Assembly (NCBI GenBank): GCA_029258835.1
Contig: JAPDJY010000039.1
Span: 99,615-163,614, forward strand
DNA: 64,000 bases
DNA from: Thermoproteota archaeon
GTDB lineage: Archaea > Asgardarchaeota > Jordiarchaeia > Jordiarchaeales > Freyrarchaeaceae
Direction of reading: 5' to 3'
Shown here: positions 1,291 to 37,504 of the stretch, one piece after another
Layout of the letters: every line of letters starts with the position of its first letter
Position numbering within the stretch: the stretch's first letter is position 1
The notes under the pieces: model-generated
What the model saw: only the letters and a program-made list of their open reading frames with translations
Database searches by the model: none
What the model was told of the DNA's origin: nothing
Translations under genes and position numbers: made by a program

Positions 1291-1844
1291 TCAACCTAAC
1301 TTCCGCTTAATGATCTCTTTAACCAAAAGGTTAAATGCAGCTTCCACGTTTTCACCGTTCTTCGCAGAGGTTTCAAAAAAAGAAGCGTTTATTTCTTTCG
1401 CGTATCTTTTGCCGTCCTCTGTCCGCACCTCCCTAAGGTTAGAGAGGTCAACCTTATTTCCAATAACCACCGTGACAGGTTCCTCCTTAACATTCTTTAA
1501 CAATTCCTTACGCCAATTTTCAAGGTTGTCAAAGGTAGAGCGTCGTGTTATATCGTAAACTAGCATCGCCCCGACTGCACCTTGATAAAACGTACTACGT
1601 ACGTGTTTGAAGTGTGGCTGCCCACCTAAGTCCCAAAGCACCAACTTAGCAGTAAGATCGCCTAAGTTAATAATTTTTGAGAAGATATCTATACCTTTAA
1701 CCCGCTGAGTAGCACGAGCTACCAGCGTATAGTCTTCTTGTAGTCGGCCATAAACCTACCGCTAACATACTTTGATATTAAACTAGTTTTTCCCACGGCA
1801 CCATCACCTGCAAGGATCACCTTATAAACAAGTTCCCGTGACAA
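1291..1844 (-). CDS. Rab-like small GTPase, spliced: exon 1 1729-1844, exon 2 1291-1696, 173 aa
   Basis: Exon 1 starts at TTG 1844 and encodes YKVILAGDGAVGKTSLI (G1). Exon 2 encodes WDLGGQ (G3), NKVD (G4) and ETSAK (G5). Removing 1697-1728 restores YKKTIGIDIF (switch I). Confidence 0.9.
1697..1728 (-). other. Candidate BHB intron (32 nt) in the Rab-like GTPase mRNA
   Basis: Minus strand: GACT AT|A CGCTG-GTAGC-TCGT-GCTAC-T-CAGCG GGTT AA|A GGT. Central 4-bp helix GACT/GGTT, two 3-nt bulges, in-frame TAG inside. Confidence 0.85.
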
Positions 1845-27430: not shown

Positions 27431-27844
27431 ATGAACAAGGAAGTTTTAGAAGAGTTCAAAGAAACGCTTGATGAATTAAAAGAATACTCGAAGATGGGGA
27501 TACCGATAATAGTCGAAGGGCAAAAGGACGAAGCAAGCCTTAGGGAGATAGGGATCACCGGGCCAATAATAACGATTTCAGGGATGAAATTATTGGAAAT
27601 AGCAGAAATGCTTGAAAAAGAGGAAATCATAGTCCTCACAGACTTCGACAGAAGAGGAGATAAAATGGCATTAACAATCCTCTCCTACAGGGTAGGAGAC
27701 AGTACACTCACAAAGTACTTCAGAAGTAAAATAAGAAAGTTAAAAGCACACATAACACCATGCGTGGAGGGGTTCGCTAAAACATACCTCAAAGCATGTA
27801 GAATGGAAAAAACATACAAGAACCCGTTTAGAAGGTTAAATTAG
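27431..27844 (+). CDS. Stand-alone Toprim domain protein
   Basis: IIVEGQKD, IVLTDFDRRG. Confidence 0.9.
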   Translation: MNKEVLEEFKETLDELKEYSKMGIPIIVEGQKDEASLREIGITGPIITISGMKLLEIAEMLEKEEIIVLTDFDRRGDKMALTILSYRVGDSTLTKYFRSKIRKLKAHITPCVEGFAKTYLKACRMEKTYKNPFRRLN

Positions 27845-27957
27845 GAACAAAAAATAGGAGGCTTTCATCTAAAAGAGAGTTAAGAGCACTAGTTAGTTAC
27901 CGTCCACTCAATCATTTCCCAATAGGGTTATGTGTTAAATTGGGAGGTGAAGTTCAC

Positions 27958-29176
27958 ATGGCTAATCGAAATGAAGTTGGAACAATAAAGTACATTATAA
28001 AGGCGAAGATAGAAGTAAACGGGGTGGTCGAGAAGCCTGACGTTATAGGCGCGATTTTTGGTCAAGTACGTTGAGCTCACCGCTCACGTAGACCAATTAG
28101 AGGGGCTTCTCGGCTCTGAATTAGACCTTCGAGAGTTGCAACGTACGGGTAGGATAGGTAGGATAAGAGCGAACATTGAGACGCACGGTGGGAAATCTGT
28201 AGGTGAGATTATTATTCCATCAAGTTTGGATAAGGTTGAAACAGCCATCCTTGCTGCGGCGCTTGAAACTATTGATAGAATTGGGCCGTGTAGTGCGAAG
28301 GTAAGTTTTGAGGCAATTGAAGACGTGAGGGAGAGTAAACGCAAGAAGATTATTGAGAGAGCGGTAGAAATTCTTAGGAGGTGGCCTGAGGAGGTTGCCC
28401 CTGAAACGGAGCAAATAATGAATAAGGTAATTGAGGCTGTGCGCGTTGAGGAAATTTGTAAGTATGGTAAGGAAGGGTTGCCGGCTGGGCCTGAAATAGA
28501 TTCTGCTGATGAGGTTATAGTAGTCGAGGGAAGGGCAGACGTGTTAAACATGTTGAAGTATGGTTTTAAAAATGTCATTGCAGTGGAGGGAACCAGCATA
28601 CCGAGAACTATAGTGGAACTTAGTAAAAGAAAAACTATTACAGCATTTCTTGATGGGGATAGGGGCGGGGATTTGATTTTGAAGGAGCTTCTTCAGGTTG
28701 CAGAGGTCGATTATGTTGCTAGGGCTCCACTGGGGAGGGAGGTGGAGGATCTTAGTTTTAAGGAGATTATGAAGGCGTTGAATAACAAGCTTCCCGTTGA
28801 GCAGGCGGTGGAACATGAGGCAGTAAAAAGGAGAGAGGAGAGGAAGCCTTTAATGGTAAGAAGGGGCATTAGACAGGTTCCCCATGAGATCTTGGAGCAC
28901 GCTAGGCGGATTTTTGGTTCAGGTAAGGCGGTTATTTTGGGAGAGCAGTTTAATGTTGTTGCGGAGGTCGACGTATCAGAGCTTGCAGAATACCTTAAGA
29001 GCATGGATGGGAGAGCTGAAGCAGTTATTCTTGATGGAATAGCAACCCAGAGGCTTGTTGACATCTCTCAGGAGAGGGGAATACAGTGGCTCGTCAGCGT
29101 CAGACAGGAAAACATCGTTAAAAAGCCCCCCGACCTTAAAATATTAGAGTTTAACGAAATATTAGGGCATGATTGA
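27958..29176 (+). CDS. dnaG: Archaeal DnaG (primase-like, exosome-associated), spliced: exon 1 27958-28065, exon 2 28097-29176, 395 aa
   Basis: ATG 27958 after GGAGGTGA. Exon 1 encodes KYIIKAKIEVNGVVEKPDVIGAIFGQ; exon 2 encodes LEGLLGSELDLRELQRTGRIGRI, VEGRADV and DGDRGG. Confidence 0.93.
28066..28096 (+). other. Candidate BHB intron (31 nt) in dnaG mRNA
   Basis: GGTC AA|G TACG-T-TGAGC-TCACC-GCTCA-CGTA GACC AA|T; perfect GGTC/GACC central helix; in-frame TGA inside. Confidence 0.9.
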
Positions 29177-29194
29177 AGGGAGTGTAGATGGAAA

Positions 29195-30325
29195 GTGGTT
29201 AGCGGAGAGCTGGGAAAAGGAAGCGTAGGATATAGAAGAGAGGAGGTCTCCAAGAGGAGGAAGGGCGGACGAAGACGTTGGAAAGCTGTGAGTATGATAG
29301 AGCTGGAGCCGTTAGGATACCCTCTCAGAGCTGCAGGGGAGGAGGGGGAAACTGTTTTAACTACCGATAATCCCGAGATATTTCAGGCATATGCCAGAGA
29401 GCAGTGGGGAGGCTTATATGTTAAGAAAGGAGACTTACTTTTTGACCGGTCTCTTTTTCCAGACTTCGCTTTTAAAATAGTCGAAATGGCGCCAAGTGAG
29501 GGGCAGATAACCAATAGAACAGTGTTTAAGCTTAGCAGGAGAAGAAGGCCGGAAGTTCACGGGTTGGCTAAAATTAGTTTTTCAGACGTAGTAGGACAGG
29601 AGAGGGCGAAAAGAAAGTGTATGATAATAAAAAGGTACTTGGAAGAGCCAGAGTTCTTTAAGGAGTGGGCGCCCAAAGCGGTTCTTTTTTACGGCCCTCC
29701 CGGGACAGGGAAAACGATGATGGCGCAAGCTTTAGCTAATGAGGCGAAAGCGTCCTTTTTCTTCGTTAAGTCACCAGAGCTTATAGGCACCCATGTCGGT
29801 GACGCAGCCAATAGGATACATAGACTTTTCAAAAGGGCAAGAGATGGATCACCCAGTATTGTATATATAGATGAAATAGATGCTGTAGGTTTAGATAGGA
29901 GGTTTCAGAGTGTTCGAGGCGACGTGACGGAAGTTGTTAACGCCCTCCTTGCTGAAATGGACGCACTAGAAGGTGAGAGAGGCGTGGTATGTATTGGGGC
30001 AACAAACAACATTATGCTTCTCGACGCTTCCCTAAGAAGCAGGTTTGAAGAGGAAATAGAATTTACATTACCCAACCTAGAGGAAAGAAAGAGGATACTT
30101 GAAATGTATGCAGCGAAAATTCCTTTAAGGGTTGAAGCAGATTTCAATAAAATAGCTAGGATAACGGAGGGGTTCTCTGGGAGAGACCTTAAGGAAAAGG
30201 TGCTTAAGGCGGTATTCCATCAAGCGATAGCTGAGGGTGTGGATGTTATAACACACCAGATGATTGAAGAATCTGTAAGGGGATTGATTAGGAAGGATAA
30301 GGGTACCGAGAGACTTTTTATTTAA
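29195..30325 (+). CDS. AAA family ATPase (COG1223-like)
   Basis: PLGYPL, FQAYAREQW, WAPKAVLFYGPPGTGKT, IDEIDA, RGDVTEVVNALL. Confidence 0.9.
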   Translation: MVSGELGKGSVGYRREEVSKRRKGGRRRWKAVSMIELEPLGYPLRAAGEEGETVLTTDNPEIFQAYAREQWGGLYVKKGDLLFDRSLFPDFAFKIVEMAPSEGQITNRTVFKLSRRRRPEVHGLAKISFSDVVGQERAKRKCMIIKRYLEEPEFFKEWAPKAVLFYGPPGTGKTMMAQALANEAKASFFFVKSPELIGTHVGDAANRIHRLFKRARDGSPSIVYIDEIDAVGLDRRFQSVRGDVTEVVNALLAEMDALEGERGVVCIGATNNIMLLDASLRSRFEEEIEFTLPNLEERKRILEMYAAKIPLRVEADFNKIARITEGFSGRDLKEKVLKAVFHQAIAEGVDVITHQMIEESVRGLIRKDKGTERLFI

Positions 30326-36358: not shown

Positions 36359-37504
36359 TTAGCTAACTGGGCGCCAGACTAAACCCAGTTCATCAGCAAG
36401 CTGATAGGCTTTTTGCATCTCCTCGGGTGAAACACGGCGATTTATATCACGATAATTTTTGCTTTTAGGCACAAGATGTGTTGGATAATACTGAGACATT
36501 ACATTTACCAATGCTTTAGGACAGTTTTCAGCGATCCATTCTAAGACGGGGCGGGTGCAGCACTCAACATGTCCTGGCAGAACAAGGTGGCGAATTATCA
36601 TTCCAGAGGAGCCGTTAGCGACTGTTTGCTCGTATGCTAGCTTATGGTTCCGCGAGACAACTTCCCAGTAGTTTTTAACCTTGCTTAGCTTTTCGGCACA
36701 TTCATTATTGCCATACTTAAAGTCAGGCAACCAGAAATCCATGACATCTAATAAAAGCATCATGCATTCCTTAGAGCAGTACATGTTTGAGTTCCAAAGC
36801 TGAGGTATATTAACTCTAAGTTGCCTAATGGCGTCGAGGATTATCCACGTGGATGGAGTAGGGTCTCCGCCAACATAATTTATGTTTCGTGCACCCTCAC
36901 GCTTCAACGTTCTAGCTATGCTGGCCAGGTCGGCGGCAGTTACCTCTGCACCGTTCAGAGGATCCGTGCTTATATCGTGATTCTGACAGAAAACACAGGA
37001 AAAAGTGCAACTAGTGAAGAAGAATGCACCGCTGGACGTTCATCCAGCGATTGTGCCTGAGGGCACTAGGGGTGCTTCCTCACCCATGTGCAGAAACGCT
37101 GTGGAAACGTAAGCTTTAGCACCAAGTTTGCAGAAGCCAAGCTTACCTTCTAAACGGTTTACACCACACCTTCTTTCGCAAAAATGGCAGTTAACAAGGA
37201 TTCGCTTGGCAAGCTCTGCCTTTAGGTCAAGATAGGATGTTTGAGGTGTGTCAAGCTCGCCTAGCTCCACAGATCCTTGATCCACTTTCGTAAGGAGTCT
37301 ACGGAATTGCTTACTGGCACGTTCATGAACATTCCAAAGCATCTCGGTAGGAGAATTAAGGGGTACATCAATGTTTACCTTACTAGCTATTAAAAACTTT
37401 GCAGGCCGCTTATCGTTGAAAACGTCATAGTACCTTTTAAGCCGTTCTAAAACTACGTTATCACTCCACACTTTAAGCGAATCAGGTCTTACCACACGCC
37501 ACAT
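36359..37504 (-). CDS. PflX-like radical SAM protein, spliced: exon 1 37051-37504, exon 2 36359-37023, 372 aa
   Basis: CHFCERRCGVNR, HMGEEAPLVPSGT|IFFTSCTFSCVFCQNHDIS, NINYVGGDPTP, DFKYGN, IIRHLVLPGH. Confidence 0.9.
37024..37050 (-). other. Candidate BHB intron (27 nt) in the PflX-like radical SAM mRNA
   Basis: Minus strand: AG GCAC AA|T CGCTGGA-TGAACG-TCCAGCG GTGC AT|T CT; perfect GCAC/GTGC helix; in-frame TGA. Confidence 0.9.

What the first reader, a model, noticed from the sequence alone, without database searches (positions are those of the whole stretch)
27958..28096. dnaG split by a 31-nt BHB intron within the conserved GAIFGQ-xEGLLG motif
The real start is ATG 27958 (GGAGGTGA RBS); the ORF-track N-terminus MVKYVELTAHVDQ is mostly translated intron. 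The central helix GGTC/GACC is perfect, the bulges are AA|G and AA|T, and the inner hairpin has 9 bp. Splicing gives FGQLEGLLG and a 395-aa protein; unspliced mRNA stops at TGA two codons into the intron. Archaeal DnaG is an exosome-associated RNA-binding subunit (established). As with cbf5, an RNA-processing factor would be gated by splicing (inference).
Basis: partly seen in the sequence, partly recalled or inferred. Interest (0 to 1): 0.88.

Follow-up and report, generated by a model that had tools for sequence, protein, structure and literature searches.

The report
tRNA-type intron splitting Asgard dnaG
The only dnaG gene of this Jordarchaeales-type Asgard archaeon is interrupted by a 31-base intron shaped like those cut out of archaeal tRNAs, so the protein can almost certainly be made only after the mRNA is cut and rejoined, something published for just one other archaeal protein gene (cbf5).

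Summary
dnaG runs 27958-28065 (36 aa), then a 31-nt insert (28066-28096), then 28097-29176. Removing the insert gives a 395-aa DnaG that matches the family profile and an intact orthologue without a gap. [quoted passage not shown] The outer exon helix is weak (HBh' type). Such a motif arises at a fixed site and length about once in 10,000 trials.

It is the only dnaG locus in the genome. The genome also encodes a catalytic and a non-catalytic EndA subunit plus RtcB.

The strongest evidence is comparative. Same-site introns of 31-40 nt occur in three separate Asgard families, with compensatory changes in both helices. Within one genus, carriers and intact genes coexist, and the intact genes read exactly like the predicted spliced product. 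A Hermod-type family has a separate BHB intron 13 nt downstream.

No RNA read spans the junction, so splicing is inferred. The "gating of an RNA-processing factor" idea is unsupported: a GTPase gene and a radical-SAM gene in this window carry similar introns.

This scan has already reported dnaG BHB introns in other Asgard genomes. I found no publication describing them.

The parts
27943..27950 (+). Shine-Dalgarno-like GGAGGTGA, 7 nt before the start codon
   Evidence: Read directly. The same box and spacing occur in G001 and G002.
27958..28065 (+). dnaG exon 1 (36 codons, MANRNEVGT...IGAIFGQ)
   Evidence: Residues 11-36 match positions 1-26 of NCBIfam NF003108 DnaG. Aligns without gaps to the intact Freyarchaeum-type orthologue.
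28060..28063 (+). 5' strand of the 4-bp central helix (GGUC, exon 1)
   Evidence: Pairs with 28091-28094 at 4 of 4 positions. Its third base is the Gly codon wobble base and covaries with the intron partner across lineages.
28064..28066 (+). 5' bulge AAG; predicted cut between 28065 and 28066
   Evidence: Unpaired in the predicted fold. The bulge reads AAN or AGA in all 20 distinct homologous introns.
28066..28096 (+). 31-nt BHB intron
   Evidence: Its removal restores the frame and the conserved motif. Intact orthologues lack exactly this position.
28067..28090 (+). Inner hairpin h' (UACGU-U-GAGC / GCUC-ACGUA, loop UCACC)
   Evidence: 9 bp in the minimum-energy fold. The stem is conserved while the loop varies in G001, G002, L140 and L141, and pair 5 shows the series U-A, U.G, C-G.
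28072..28074 (+). TGA that ends translation of unspliced mRNA after 38 residues
   Evidence: ORF 27940-28074 ends GQVR*.
28091..28094 (+). 3' strand of the central helix (GACC, intron)
28095..28097 (+). 3' bulge AAU; predicted cut between 28096 and 28097
   Evidence: Position fixed by the BHB rule and by the protein frame. It is not closed by a strong outer helix.
28097..29176 (+). dnaG exon 2 (359 codons plus TGA), containing the Toprim domain
   Evidence: NF003108 gives 460.7 bits (cut-off 300) from profile position 28. Pfam Toprim_4 and Toprim match.

Best explanation
This is an archaeal bulge-helix-bulge (tRNA-type) intron inside the dnaG pre-mRNA.

Proposed mechanism:
- The transcript folds so that the last exon-1 bases (GGUC) pair with GACC near the 3' end of the intron. 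This 4-bp helix is flanked by two 3-nt bulges and stacked on a 9-bp intron hairpin (HBh' type, with a weak outer helix).
- The heterotetrameric (alpha-beta)2 splicing endonuclease EndA cuts after the second base of each bulge (28065|28066 and 28096|28097).
- RtcB joins the exons.
- The spliced mRNA encodes a 395-aa DnaG. Unspliced mRNA yields only a 38-residue peptide.

What is shown: the motif, exact frame and motif restoration, the single gene copy, purifying selection, the presence of the enzymes, and conservation with covariation of the motif in other lineages.

What is inferred: that cleavage and ligation really occur on this RNA. The intron is most simply a tolerated, structure-constrained insertion in a lineage whose tRNA genes are almost all interrupted. 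It need not be a regulatory device.
For: (1) Exon 1 matches profile positions 1-26 and exon 2 matches from position 28 of NF003108, so nothing is missing or extra. The alignment to intact G006 DnaG has no gap in its first 80 columns, which span the junction.

(2) The BHB geometry has 4/4 central pairs and a 9-bp inner stem. The chance rate is about 1.5e-4 per fixed site and length, and 2 of 20,000 intron shuffles reached it.

(3) There is one dnaG locus in a genome that is 94.7% complete.

(4) Against relative G002, pN is 0.245 and pS is 0.79 (saturated), with no other frame defects. Yet all 18 stem bases of the intron hairpin are identical between the two.

(5) Same-site introns occur in G001 and G002 (f1), G012 and G023 (f4), G017, G027 and G037 plus 16 of 54 genomes of genus g10 (f9). 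Their interiors are unrelated, but the central helix is kept in 78 of 80 cells, against 37-42 of 80 when the partner strand is slid by one base. Central pair 3 is U-A, C-G, A-U or U.G, and the first three inner pairs also switch type.

(6) Intact g10 orthologues read GGNCAA|ACNGARGG, which is exactly the predicted ligation product.

(7) L141 and L140 give the series U-A, U.G, C-G at inner pair 5.

(8) The genome encodes a 190-aa EndA with the Tyr/His/Lys positions, a second EndA-fold protein without the His, and one RtcB. Asgard EndA is described as (alpha-beta)2 with the L1 loop that gives broad specificity (PMC5829648).

(9) The size is within the 16-44 nt range of cbf5 introns (PMC2738675).
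Against: No transcript evidence exists for the junction. The only RNA-library contigs found lie inside exon 2 (28164-28391 and 28732-29156), and they could even be DNA carry-over.

The 3' bulge is not enforced by a solid outer helix, and the unconstrained minimum-energy fold pairs its two A residues with upstream U.

In the closest relatives (genus g2, L140, L141) the central helix has only 3 of 4 pairs, reading GGCC/GGCA.

The folding z-score of the 71-nt region is modest at -2.1.
Confidence: 0.88

Rival explanations
1. Regulated ('gated') splicing. The intron exists to make DnaG synthesis depend on EndA/RtcB activity, coupling an exosome-associated RNA-binding protein to the state of the RNA-processing machinery. 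It builds on the intron being real and is not exclusive of the best explanation.
For: Unspliced mRNA cannot give DnaG because of the TGA at 28072. The intron has been kept under selection for a long time in family f1. cbf5, the published case, is also an RNA-modification gene (PMC2738675).
Against: The same window carries equally good BHB introns in a Rab-like GTPase gene and a radical-SAM gene. Earlier unchecked notes list many more unrelated genes in this genome. Sister lineages (f2, and most of genus g10) do well with an intact dnaG. No condition-dependent data exist.
Confidence: 0.12
2. Translational bypassing ('hopping'). The ribosome takes off at CAA 28063-65, skips 31 nt over the hairpin and lands at CAA 28094-96, as in phage T4 gene 60. 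No RNA splicing occurs.
For: In this genome the take-off and landing codons are identical (CAA/CAA). A hairpin and a nearby stop codon lie in the gap.
Against: The matched codon pair is not conserved. The landing triplet is AAA in G001, G002, L140 and L141, and UAA in f4, G027 and genus g10. The BHB pairs, in contrast, are conserved and covary. The Hermod-type intron has its own BHB at another site.
Confidence: 0.03
3. A truly split or N-terminally truncated gene. Exon 2 is translated on its own, and the 38-residue exon-1 peptide is separate or dispensable.
For: Gene callers and databases list exactly such 348-375-aa products for this clade.
Against: There is no ribosome-binding site before TTG 28058. 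In f4 and f9 a stop codon lies directly before exon 2 in its own frame, so no upstream start is possible. The exon-1 peptide is highly conserved and continues the family profile seamlessly.
Confidence: 0.04
4. A pseudogene, or a frameshift artefact of assembly.
For: The annotation-level picture is a broken ORF. The genome is a 91-contig metagenome assembly.
Against: It is the only dnaG copy. The insert sits at the same position in independent assemblies from several families. Purifying selection is strong and there is no other defect. The insert is structured and covaries.
Confidence: 0.02

Closest known systems
cbf5 pre-mRNA BHB intron of Crenarchaeota (Aeropyrum, Sulfolobales, Desulfurococcales; Watanabe 2002, Yoshinari 2006, Yokobori 2009 = PMC2738675)
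   Same: A short intron (16-44 nt there; 28-40 nt here) inside a protein-coding gene. It is bounded by a BHB-like motif, removed by EndA rather than a spliceosome or self-splicing, found in organisms with a hetero-oligomeric EndA, and shows lineage-specific presence and absence.
   Different: The host gene is dnaG, not cbf5, and the phylum is Asgard, not Crenarchaeota. The same codon boundary is occupied in at least three separate families, and a second site lies 13 nt away in a fourth. Splicing is demonstrated experimentally for cbf5 but not here.
Non-canonical (HBh'-type) tRNA introns of Asgard and Thermoproteales archaea (PMC5829648; PMC11291895; bioRxiv 10.64898/2026.10.13.758758)
   Same: The same motif rule applies: a 4-bp helix, two 3-nt bulges and one strong flanking helix. 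The presumed enzymes are the same. Freyarchaeia and Atabeyarchaeia have introns in 92-95% of their tRNA genes.
   Different: The substrate is an mRNA coding region, so the excised length must also restore a reading frame. [quoted passage not shown]
HAC1/XBP1 unconventional mRNA splicing in eukaryotes (Ire1 cleavage; RtcB or Trl1 ligation). Comparison from general knowledge, not tested here.
   Same: A non-spliceosomal, endonuclease-plus-RNA-ligase removal of a short intron that changes the reading frame of an mRNA. RtcB is the ligase in metazoa.
   Different: The endonuclease is Ire1, not EndA, and the recognition motif is twin stem-loops, not a BHB. That system is a regulated stress response, and no regulation is shown here.
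Phage T4 gene 60 translational bypass
   Same: A short non-coding gap with a hairpin, a stop codon near the take-off site, and identical flanking codons in this one genome.
   Different: Matched codons are not conserved in relatives, whereas the BHB is.

Membership tests
Archaeal BHB (EndA-dependent) intron | 4-bp central helix formed by the four exon bases before the 5' bulge and the four intron bases before the 3' bulge | tested here: met
   GGUC 28060-63 pairs with GACC 28091-94 at 4/4 Watson-Crick positions. Across homologues 78 of 80 cells are paired.
Archaeal BHB (EndA-dependent) intron | Two 3-nt bulges on opposite strands that contain the cut sites | tested here: inconclusive
   The 5' bulge AAG is unpaired in the predicted fold. 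The 3' bulge AAU is positionally correct but is not closed by a firm outer helix, and the unconstrained fold pairs its two A residues. This is acceptable for the relaxed HBh' class.
Archaeal BHB (EndA-dependent) intron | At least one flanking helix (h or h') of 2 or more contiguous pairs | tested here: met
   The inner helix h' has 5 contiguous pairs and 9 bp in total. The outer helix has a U.U mismatch followed by 4 weak pairs.
Archaeal BHB (EndA-dependent) intron | Cutting after base 2 of each bulge gives a functional product | tested here: met
   The 395-aa product is continuous with the NF003108 profile and with intact orthologues. Intact g10 genes equal the predicted ligation product.
Archaeal BHB (EndA-dependent) intron | Structure maintained by compensatory change in relatives | tested here: met
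   Central pair 3 is U-A, C-G or A-U. Inner pairs 1-3 have 2-3 pair types each. Inner pair 5 shows U-A, U.G, C-G within family f1.
Archaeal BHB (EndA-dependent) intron | Host encodes a splicing endonuclease able to cut relaxed motifs, plus an RNA ligase | tested here: met
   Two PF01974 hits: a 190-aa protein with Tyr/His/Lys and a second protein lacking the His. One RtcB at 607 bits. The L1 specificity loop itself was not examined.
Archaeal BHB (EndA-dependent) intron | Spliced RNA or in-vitro cleavage observed | tested here: inconclusive
   The RNA-library contigs found do not reach the junction. Raw reads could not be examined.
Archaeal DnaG (NCBIfam NF003108, Toprim protein) | Whole-protein score above the curated cut-off, and a Toprim domain | tested here: met
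   Exon 2 alone scores 460.7 bits (cut-off 300). Exon 1 adds profile positions 1-26. Toprim_4 E-value is 1e-11.
Programmed translational bypass (T4 gene 60 type) | Matched take-off and landing codons conserved among homologues | tested here: not met
   CAA/CAA occurs here and in G037, but the pair is CAA/AAA or CAA/UAA in most relatives.

The most novel reading that the evidence does not exclude
The dnaG intron is one visible piece of a genome-wide layer of EndA/RtcB-dependent mRNA splicing in Jordarchaeales and other Asgard archaea, affecting many unrelated protein genes. The FGQ|TEG codon boundary of dnaG has been invaded or retained independently in several lineages because the conserved codons GGN-CAA supply half of a BHB motif. 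That would mean the closest prokaryotic relatives of eukaryotes routinely interrupt coding sequences with introns removed by a protein-only splicing machinery, and that intron gain is guided by exon sequence.
Probability: 0.45. Interest if true: 0.9.

Novelty: new member of a known kind. Interest (0 to 1): 0.78.

Why it matters
For over twenty years cbf5 has been the only archaeal protein-coding gene with a published tRNA-type (BHB) intron. A second host gene changes that picture in several ways.
- It lies in Asgard archaea, the closest prokaryotic relatives of eukaryotes.
- It is conserved with covariation across families and occupies two sites 13 nt apart.
- It shows that endonuclease/ligase mRNA splicing is not a crenarchaeal oddity.

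There is also a practical consequence. Gene callers mis-annotate these genes as truncated or as pseudogenes: every database DnaG of this clade starts inside the intron. This affects completeness estimates, phylogenomics and metabolic reconstruction for Asgard genomes.

The presence/absence polymorphism within one genus offers a tractable system for studying how such introns are gained and lost.

Tried and rejected
- RNA evidence. Two run searches found one metatranscriptome (X17) holding parts of the gene. Laying X17, X24, X25 and the DNA run X13 gave only exon-2 contigs for the RNA run (28164-28391 and 28732-29156). The DNA contig stopped at 28056, and no joints were reported. This says nothing for or against splicing.
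- RNAalifold on a MAFFT alignment of 15 introns gave no structure, because MAFFT misaligned the 3' ends of introns of unequal length. I replaced it with an end-anchored core alignment in Python.
- ARAGORN found no tRNA genes in the window, so there is no tRNA intron to compare locally.
- Literature searches for dnaG, Asgard or Jordarchaeia together with BHB or mRNA introns returned only cbf5 papers and tRNA-intron papers. Subscription journals are not covered.
- The genome-contig scan returned a broad archaeal sample rather than close relatives. It served as a negative survey: 78 of 80 dnaG loci are uninterrupted at this site, and the 2 exceptions carry the Hermod-type intron.
- Pseudogene, split-gene and bypass readings were considered and rejected. 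See the rival explanations.
- One g10 locus with an in-frame stop (L049, G213) did not match my motif search and was not resolved.

Full report
**What is there.** Reading 27800-29400 and the ORF list shows a 44-codon frame ending ...PDVIGAIFGQVR* at TGA 28072-74. A 372-codon ORF starts at TTG 28058 and begins MVKYVELTAHVDQLEGLLG.... Joining 27958-28065 to 28097-29176 gives a 395-aa protein reading ...IGAIFGQ|LEGLLGSELDLR.

NCBIfam NF003108 (archaeal DnaG) matches exon-1 residues 11-36 to profile positions 1-26. It matches exon 2 from its second residue to profile position 28 onward, at 460.7 bits against a cut-off of 300. Nothing is therefore missing or added at the joint. Pfam finds the Toprim domain in exon 2.

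The spliced protein aligns to the intact DnaG of G006 (same order, family f2) from residue 1, with no gap in the first 80 columns, which span the junction. The ATG at 27958 and the GGAGGTGA box 7 nt upstream are conserved in G001 and G002.

**The RNA motif.**
- GGUC (28060-63, exon 1) pairs with GACC (28091-94, intron).
- AAG (28064-66) and AAU (28095-97) are the two 3-nt bulges.
- 28067-28090 is a 9-bp hairpin with one bulged U and a UCACC loop.
- Cutting after the second base of each bulge removes exactly 28066-28096.
- The outer exon-exon helix is weak: a U.U mismatch, then U-A, U.G, U-A, U.G. This places the motif in the relaxed HBh' class.
- The unconstrained minimum-energy fold extends the central helix over the two A of the 3' bulge. 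I count this as the main structural caveat.

Protein homology fixes both the site and the length independently of the fold, so the relevant chance is that a fixed (site, length) pair shows 4/4 central pairs plus at least 5 contiguous inner pairs. That rate is 1.4-1.7e-4 over all sites and lengths of 14-60 nt on both strands of the window. It occurred in 2 of 20,000 shuffles of the intron.

**Not a pseudogene, and the only copy.** The genome (2.72 Mb, 91 contigs, 94.7% complete) has a single dnaG locus. Against G002, the 395 codons align without gaps or stops. pN is 0.245 and pS is 0.79, which is saturated. Despite that saturation, all 18 stem bases of the intron hairpin are identical between the two genomes while the loop differs.

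**Comparative evidence.** A search of 41 genomes (the window's own plus 40 relatives) and then of 400 genomes of the phylum showed the same split in several families. In each case a short match to profile positions 1 to about 27 lies in one frame and the rest of the gene in another. Reading the DNA gave the following:

| Lineage | Genomes | Intron length | Central helix |
|---|---|---|---|
| Family f1 | G001, G002 | 34 and 31 nt | GGCC/GGCA (3 of 4 pairs) |
| Family f4 | G012, G023 | 32 nt | GGCC/GGUU |
| Family f9 | G037, G027 | 31 nt | GGAC/GUUC, GGAC/GUUU |
| Family f9 | G017 | 40 nt | GGCC/GGCU |
| Genus g10 of f9 | 16 of 54 genomes | 37-40 nt | GGCC/GGCU (GGUC/GGCU in one, L041) |

All of these sit between the Gln codon CAA/CAG and the next codon. 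Of the 16 g10 carriers, 13 shift the frame and 3 are in-frame but contain stop codons.

The intron interiors are unrelated between families. In an end-anchored alignment of 20 distinct introns the central helix is paired in 78 of 80 cells, against 37-42 of 80 when the partner strand is slid by one base. Central pair 3 involves the wobble base of the Gly codon and is U-A, C-G, A-U or U.G. The first three inner pairs each show two or three pair types.

Two further f1-clade contigs (L140, L141) add a stepwise series at inner pair 5: U-A here, U.G in L141 and C-G in L140.

The intact g10 orthologues read GGNCAA|ACNGARGG, which is exactly what EndA cutting and ligation would produce from their intron-bearing congeners.

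**A second site.** In family f12 all 18 genomes with a match have two matches. In the 12 whose main match is listed, it starts at profile position 26-29. Two records, one titled Hermod and one labelled Thorarchaeota, carry the same interruption. There the only BHB-compliant solution near the break lies 13 nt downstream of the Gln codon, inside the second Leu codon. It has central helix GCCU/GGGC or GCCU/GGGU and an intron of 28-29 nt, and it restores the consensus TEGLLGEDLDLR.

**Distribution.** Of 80 dnaG loci sampled across Archaea (Archaeoglobi, Thermococci, methanogens, Bathyarchaeia and others), 78 are uninterrupted at this site. The two exceptions are the Hermod-type genes.

On a DnaG tree the same-site carriers fall into three separate clades. 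Family f1 is sister (99% support) to intron-free f2. At least four state changes are needed overall. The single-gene tree is poorly resolved at depth, so I cannot decide between one old gain with many losses and repeated gains.

**Enzymes.** The genome encodes two EndA-fold proteins. One is a 190-aa protein that keeps the Tyr, His and Lys positions of catalytic subunits. The other lacks the His. This fits an (alpha-beta)2 enzyme. There is one RtcB at 607 bits. Asgard EndA is reported as (alpha-beta)2 with the L1 loop associated with broad specificity (PMC5829648). I did not check that loop here.

**Identity of the organism.** The nearest named database proteins, at 76-80% identity, are labelled Candidatus Jordarchaeales. 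Family f2 corresponds to Candidatus Freyarchaeum deiterrae, a 3.58-Mb contig. Every database DnaG of the f1 clade is 348-375 aa long and begins inside the intron or after it, for example MANYVELIARVGK|LEGLLG. The intron has therefore been systematically mis-annotated.

Freyarchaeia and Atabeyarchaeia are reported to have introns in 92-95% of their tRNA genes. That paper does not mention introns in protein genes (PMC11291895).

**RNA data.** One metatranscriptome holds parts of the gene, but its contigs lie only inside exon 2, and no joint was seen. Splicing in this organism is therefore inferred, not observed.

**Rivals.**
- Translational bypass is formally possible in this genome, which has CAA before both the gap and the landing site. 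The matched codons are not conserved in relatives, whereas the BHB is.
- Independent translation of exon 2 is contradicted by the lack of a ribosome-binding site. In f4 and f9 a stop codon also lies directly before exon 2 in its own frame.
- A pseudogene or assembly error is contradicted by the single copy, by purifying selection and by recurrence in independent assemblies.
The window holds two more BHB-compliant, frame-restoring introns in unrelated genes. One is at 1697-1728 (minus strand) in a Rab-like GTPase gene, with central helix GACU/GGUU and 6 inner pairs. The other is at 37024-37050 (minus strand) in a radical-SAM gene, inside the CxxxCxxC region, with central helix GCAC/GUGC and 8 inner pairs.

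**Comparison with what is known.** The closest published system is the cbf5 intron of Crenarchaeota: 16-44 nt, BHB-like, cut by EndA, with lineage-specific loss (PMC2738675). This case works the same way on paper. It differs in host gene and phylum and in the two nearby sites, and it lacks experimental proof. I found no paper describing a dnaG or any Asgard mRNA BHB intron.

Earlier notes of this scan had already reported dnaG BHB introns in other Asgard genomes. These include Hermod-type genomes, a Jordarchaeia/Freyarchaeia-group genome, and two Loki-type genomes for which spliced environmental RNA was reported. I treated those notes as leads. I re-derived the Hermod-type and Jordarchaeales-type cases independently, but I could not check the RNA claims.

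**Verdict.** This is a real, conserved BHB intron in the only dnaG gene, at confidence about 0.88. It is a new member of a known kind, of high interest to archaeal RNA biology and to Asgard genome annotation. Direct RNA evidence for this genome is still missing.

Noticed in passing
window 1697-1728 (minus strand): A 32-nt BHB-compliant insert (central helix GACU/GGUU, bulges AUA/AAA, 6 inner pairs). Its removal gives a continuous Rab/Ras-like GTPase reading ...GDGAVGKTS...WDLGGQ....
   Followed up: partly
window 37024-37050 (minus strand): A 27-nt BHB-compliant insert (central helix GCAC/GUGC, bulges AAU/AUU, 8 inner pairs). Its removal restores a radical-SAM CxxxCxxC region (...CTFSCVFCQNHD...).
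   Followed up: partly
L021, L029, L086, L101 (family f12, Hermod-type dnaG): A separate 28-29-nt BHB intron lies 13 nt downstream of the site used here, inside the second Leu codon of TEGLLG. All 18 f12 genomes that have a dnaG match appear to carry it.
   Followed up: yes
L050 (G232), L051 (G243), genus g10 of family f9: Same-site introns of 39 nt. They are in-frame but contain TAA/TAG stops, so a frameshift test alone would miss them.
   Followed up: partly
L036-L051 (g10 introns): These introns contain two copies of CGGC(U)AA(A/U), the second being the 3' splice motif. This could be a duplicated or alternative 3' site. The first copy would give only 3 of 4 central pairs and an out-of-frame product.
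   Followed up: no
P0001-P0006 (database DnaG of the Jordarchaeales clade): All are 348-375 aa and start inside or after the intron. Public annotation of this clade's DnaG lacks the conserved 36-residue N-terminus.
   Followed up: yes
window 27431-27844 (+) and 29195-30325 (+): dnaG is flanked upstream by a 137-aa stand-alone Toprim protein and downstream by a PRS2-type AAA ATPase. The same three-gene order is seen in L140 and L141.
   Followed up: no
L058 862-1788 (G000 contig C6): The putative EndA beta subunit ORF has a long Ser/Thr/Pro-rich N-terminal extension if it is read from the first ATG. The true start is probably further downstream.
   Followed up: no
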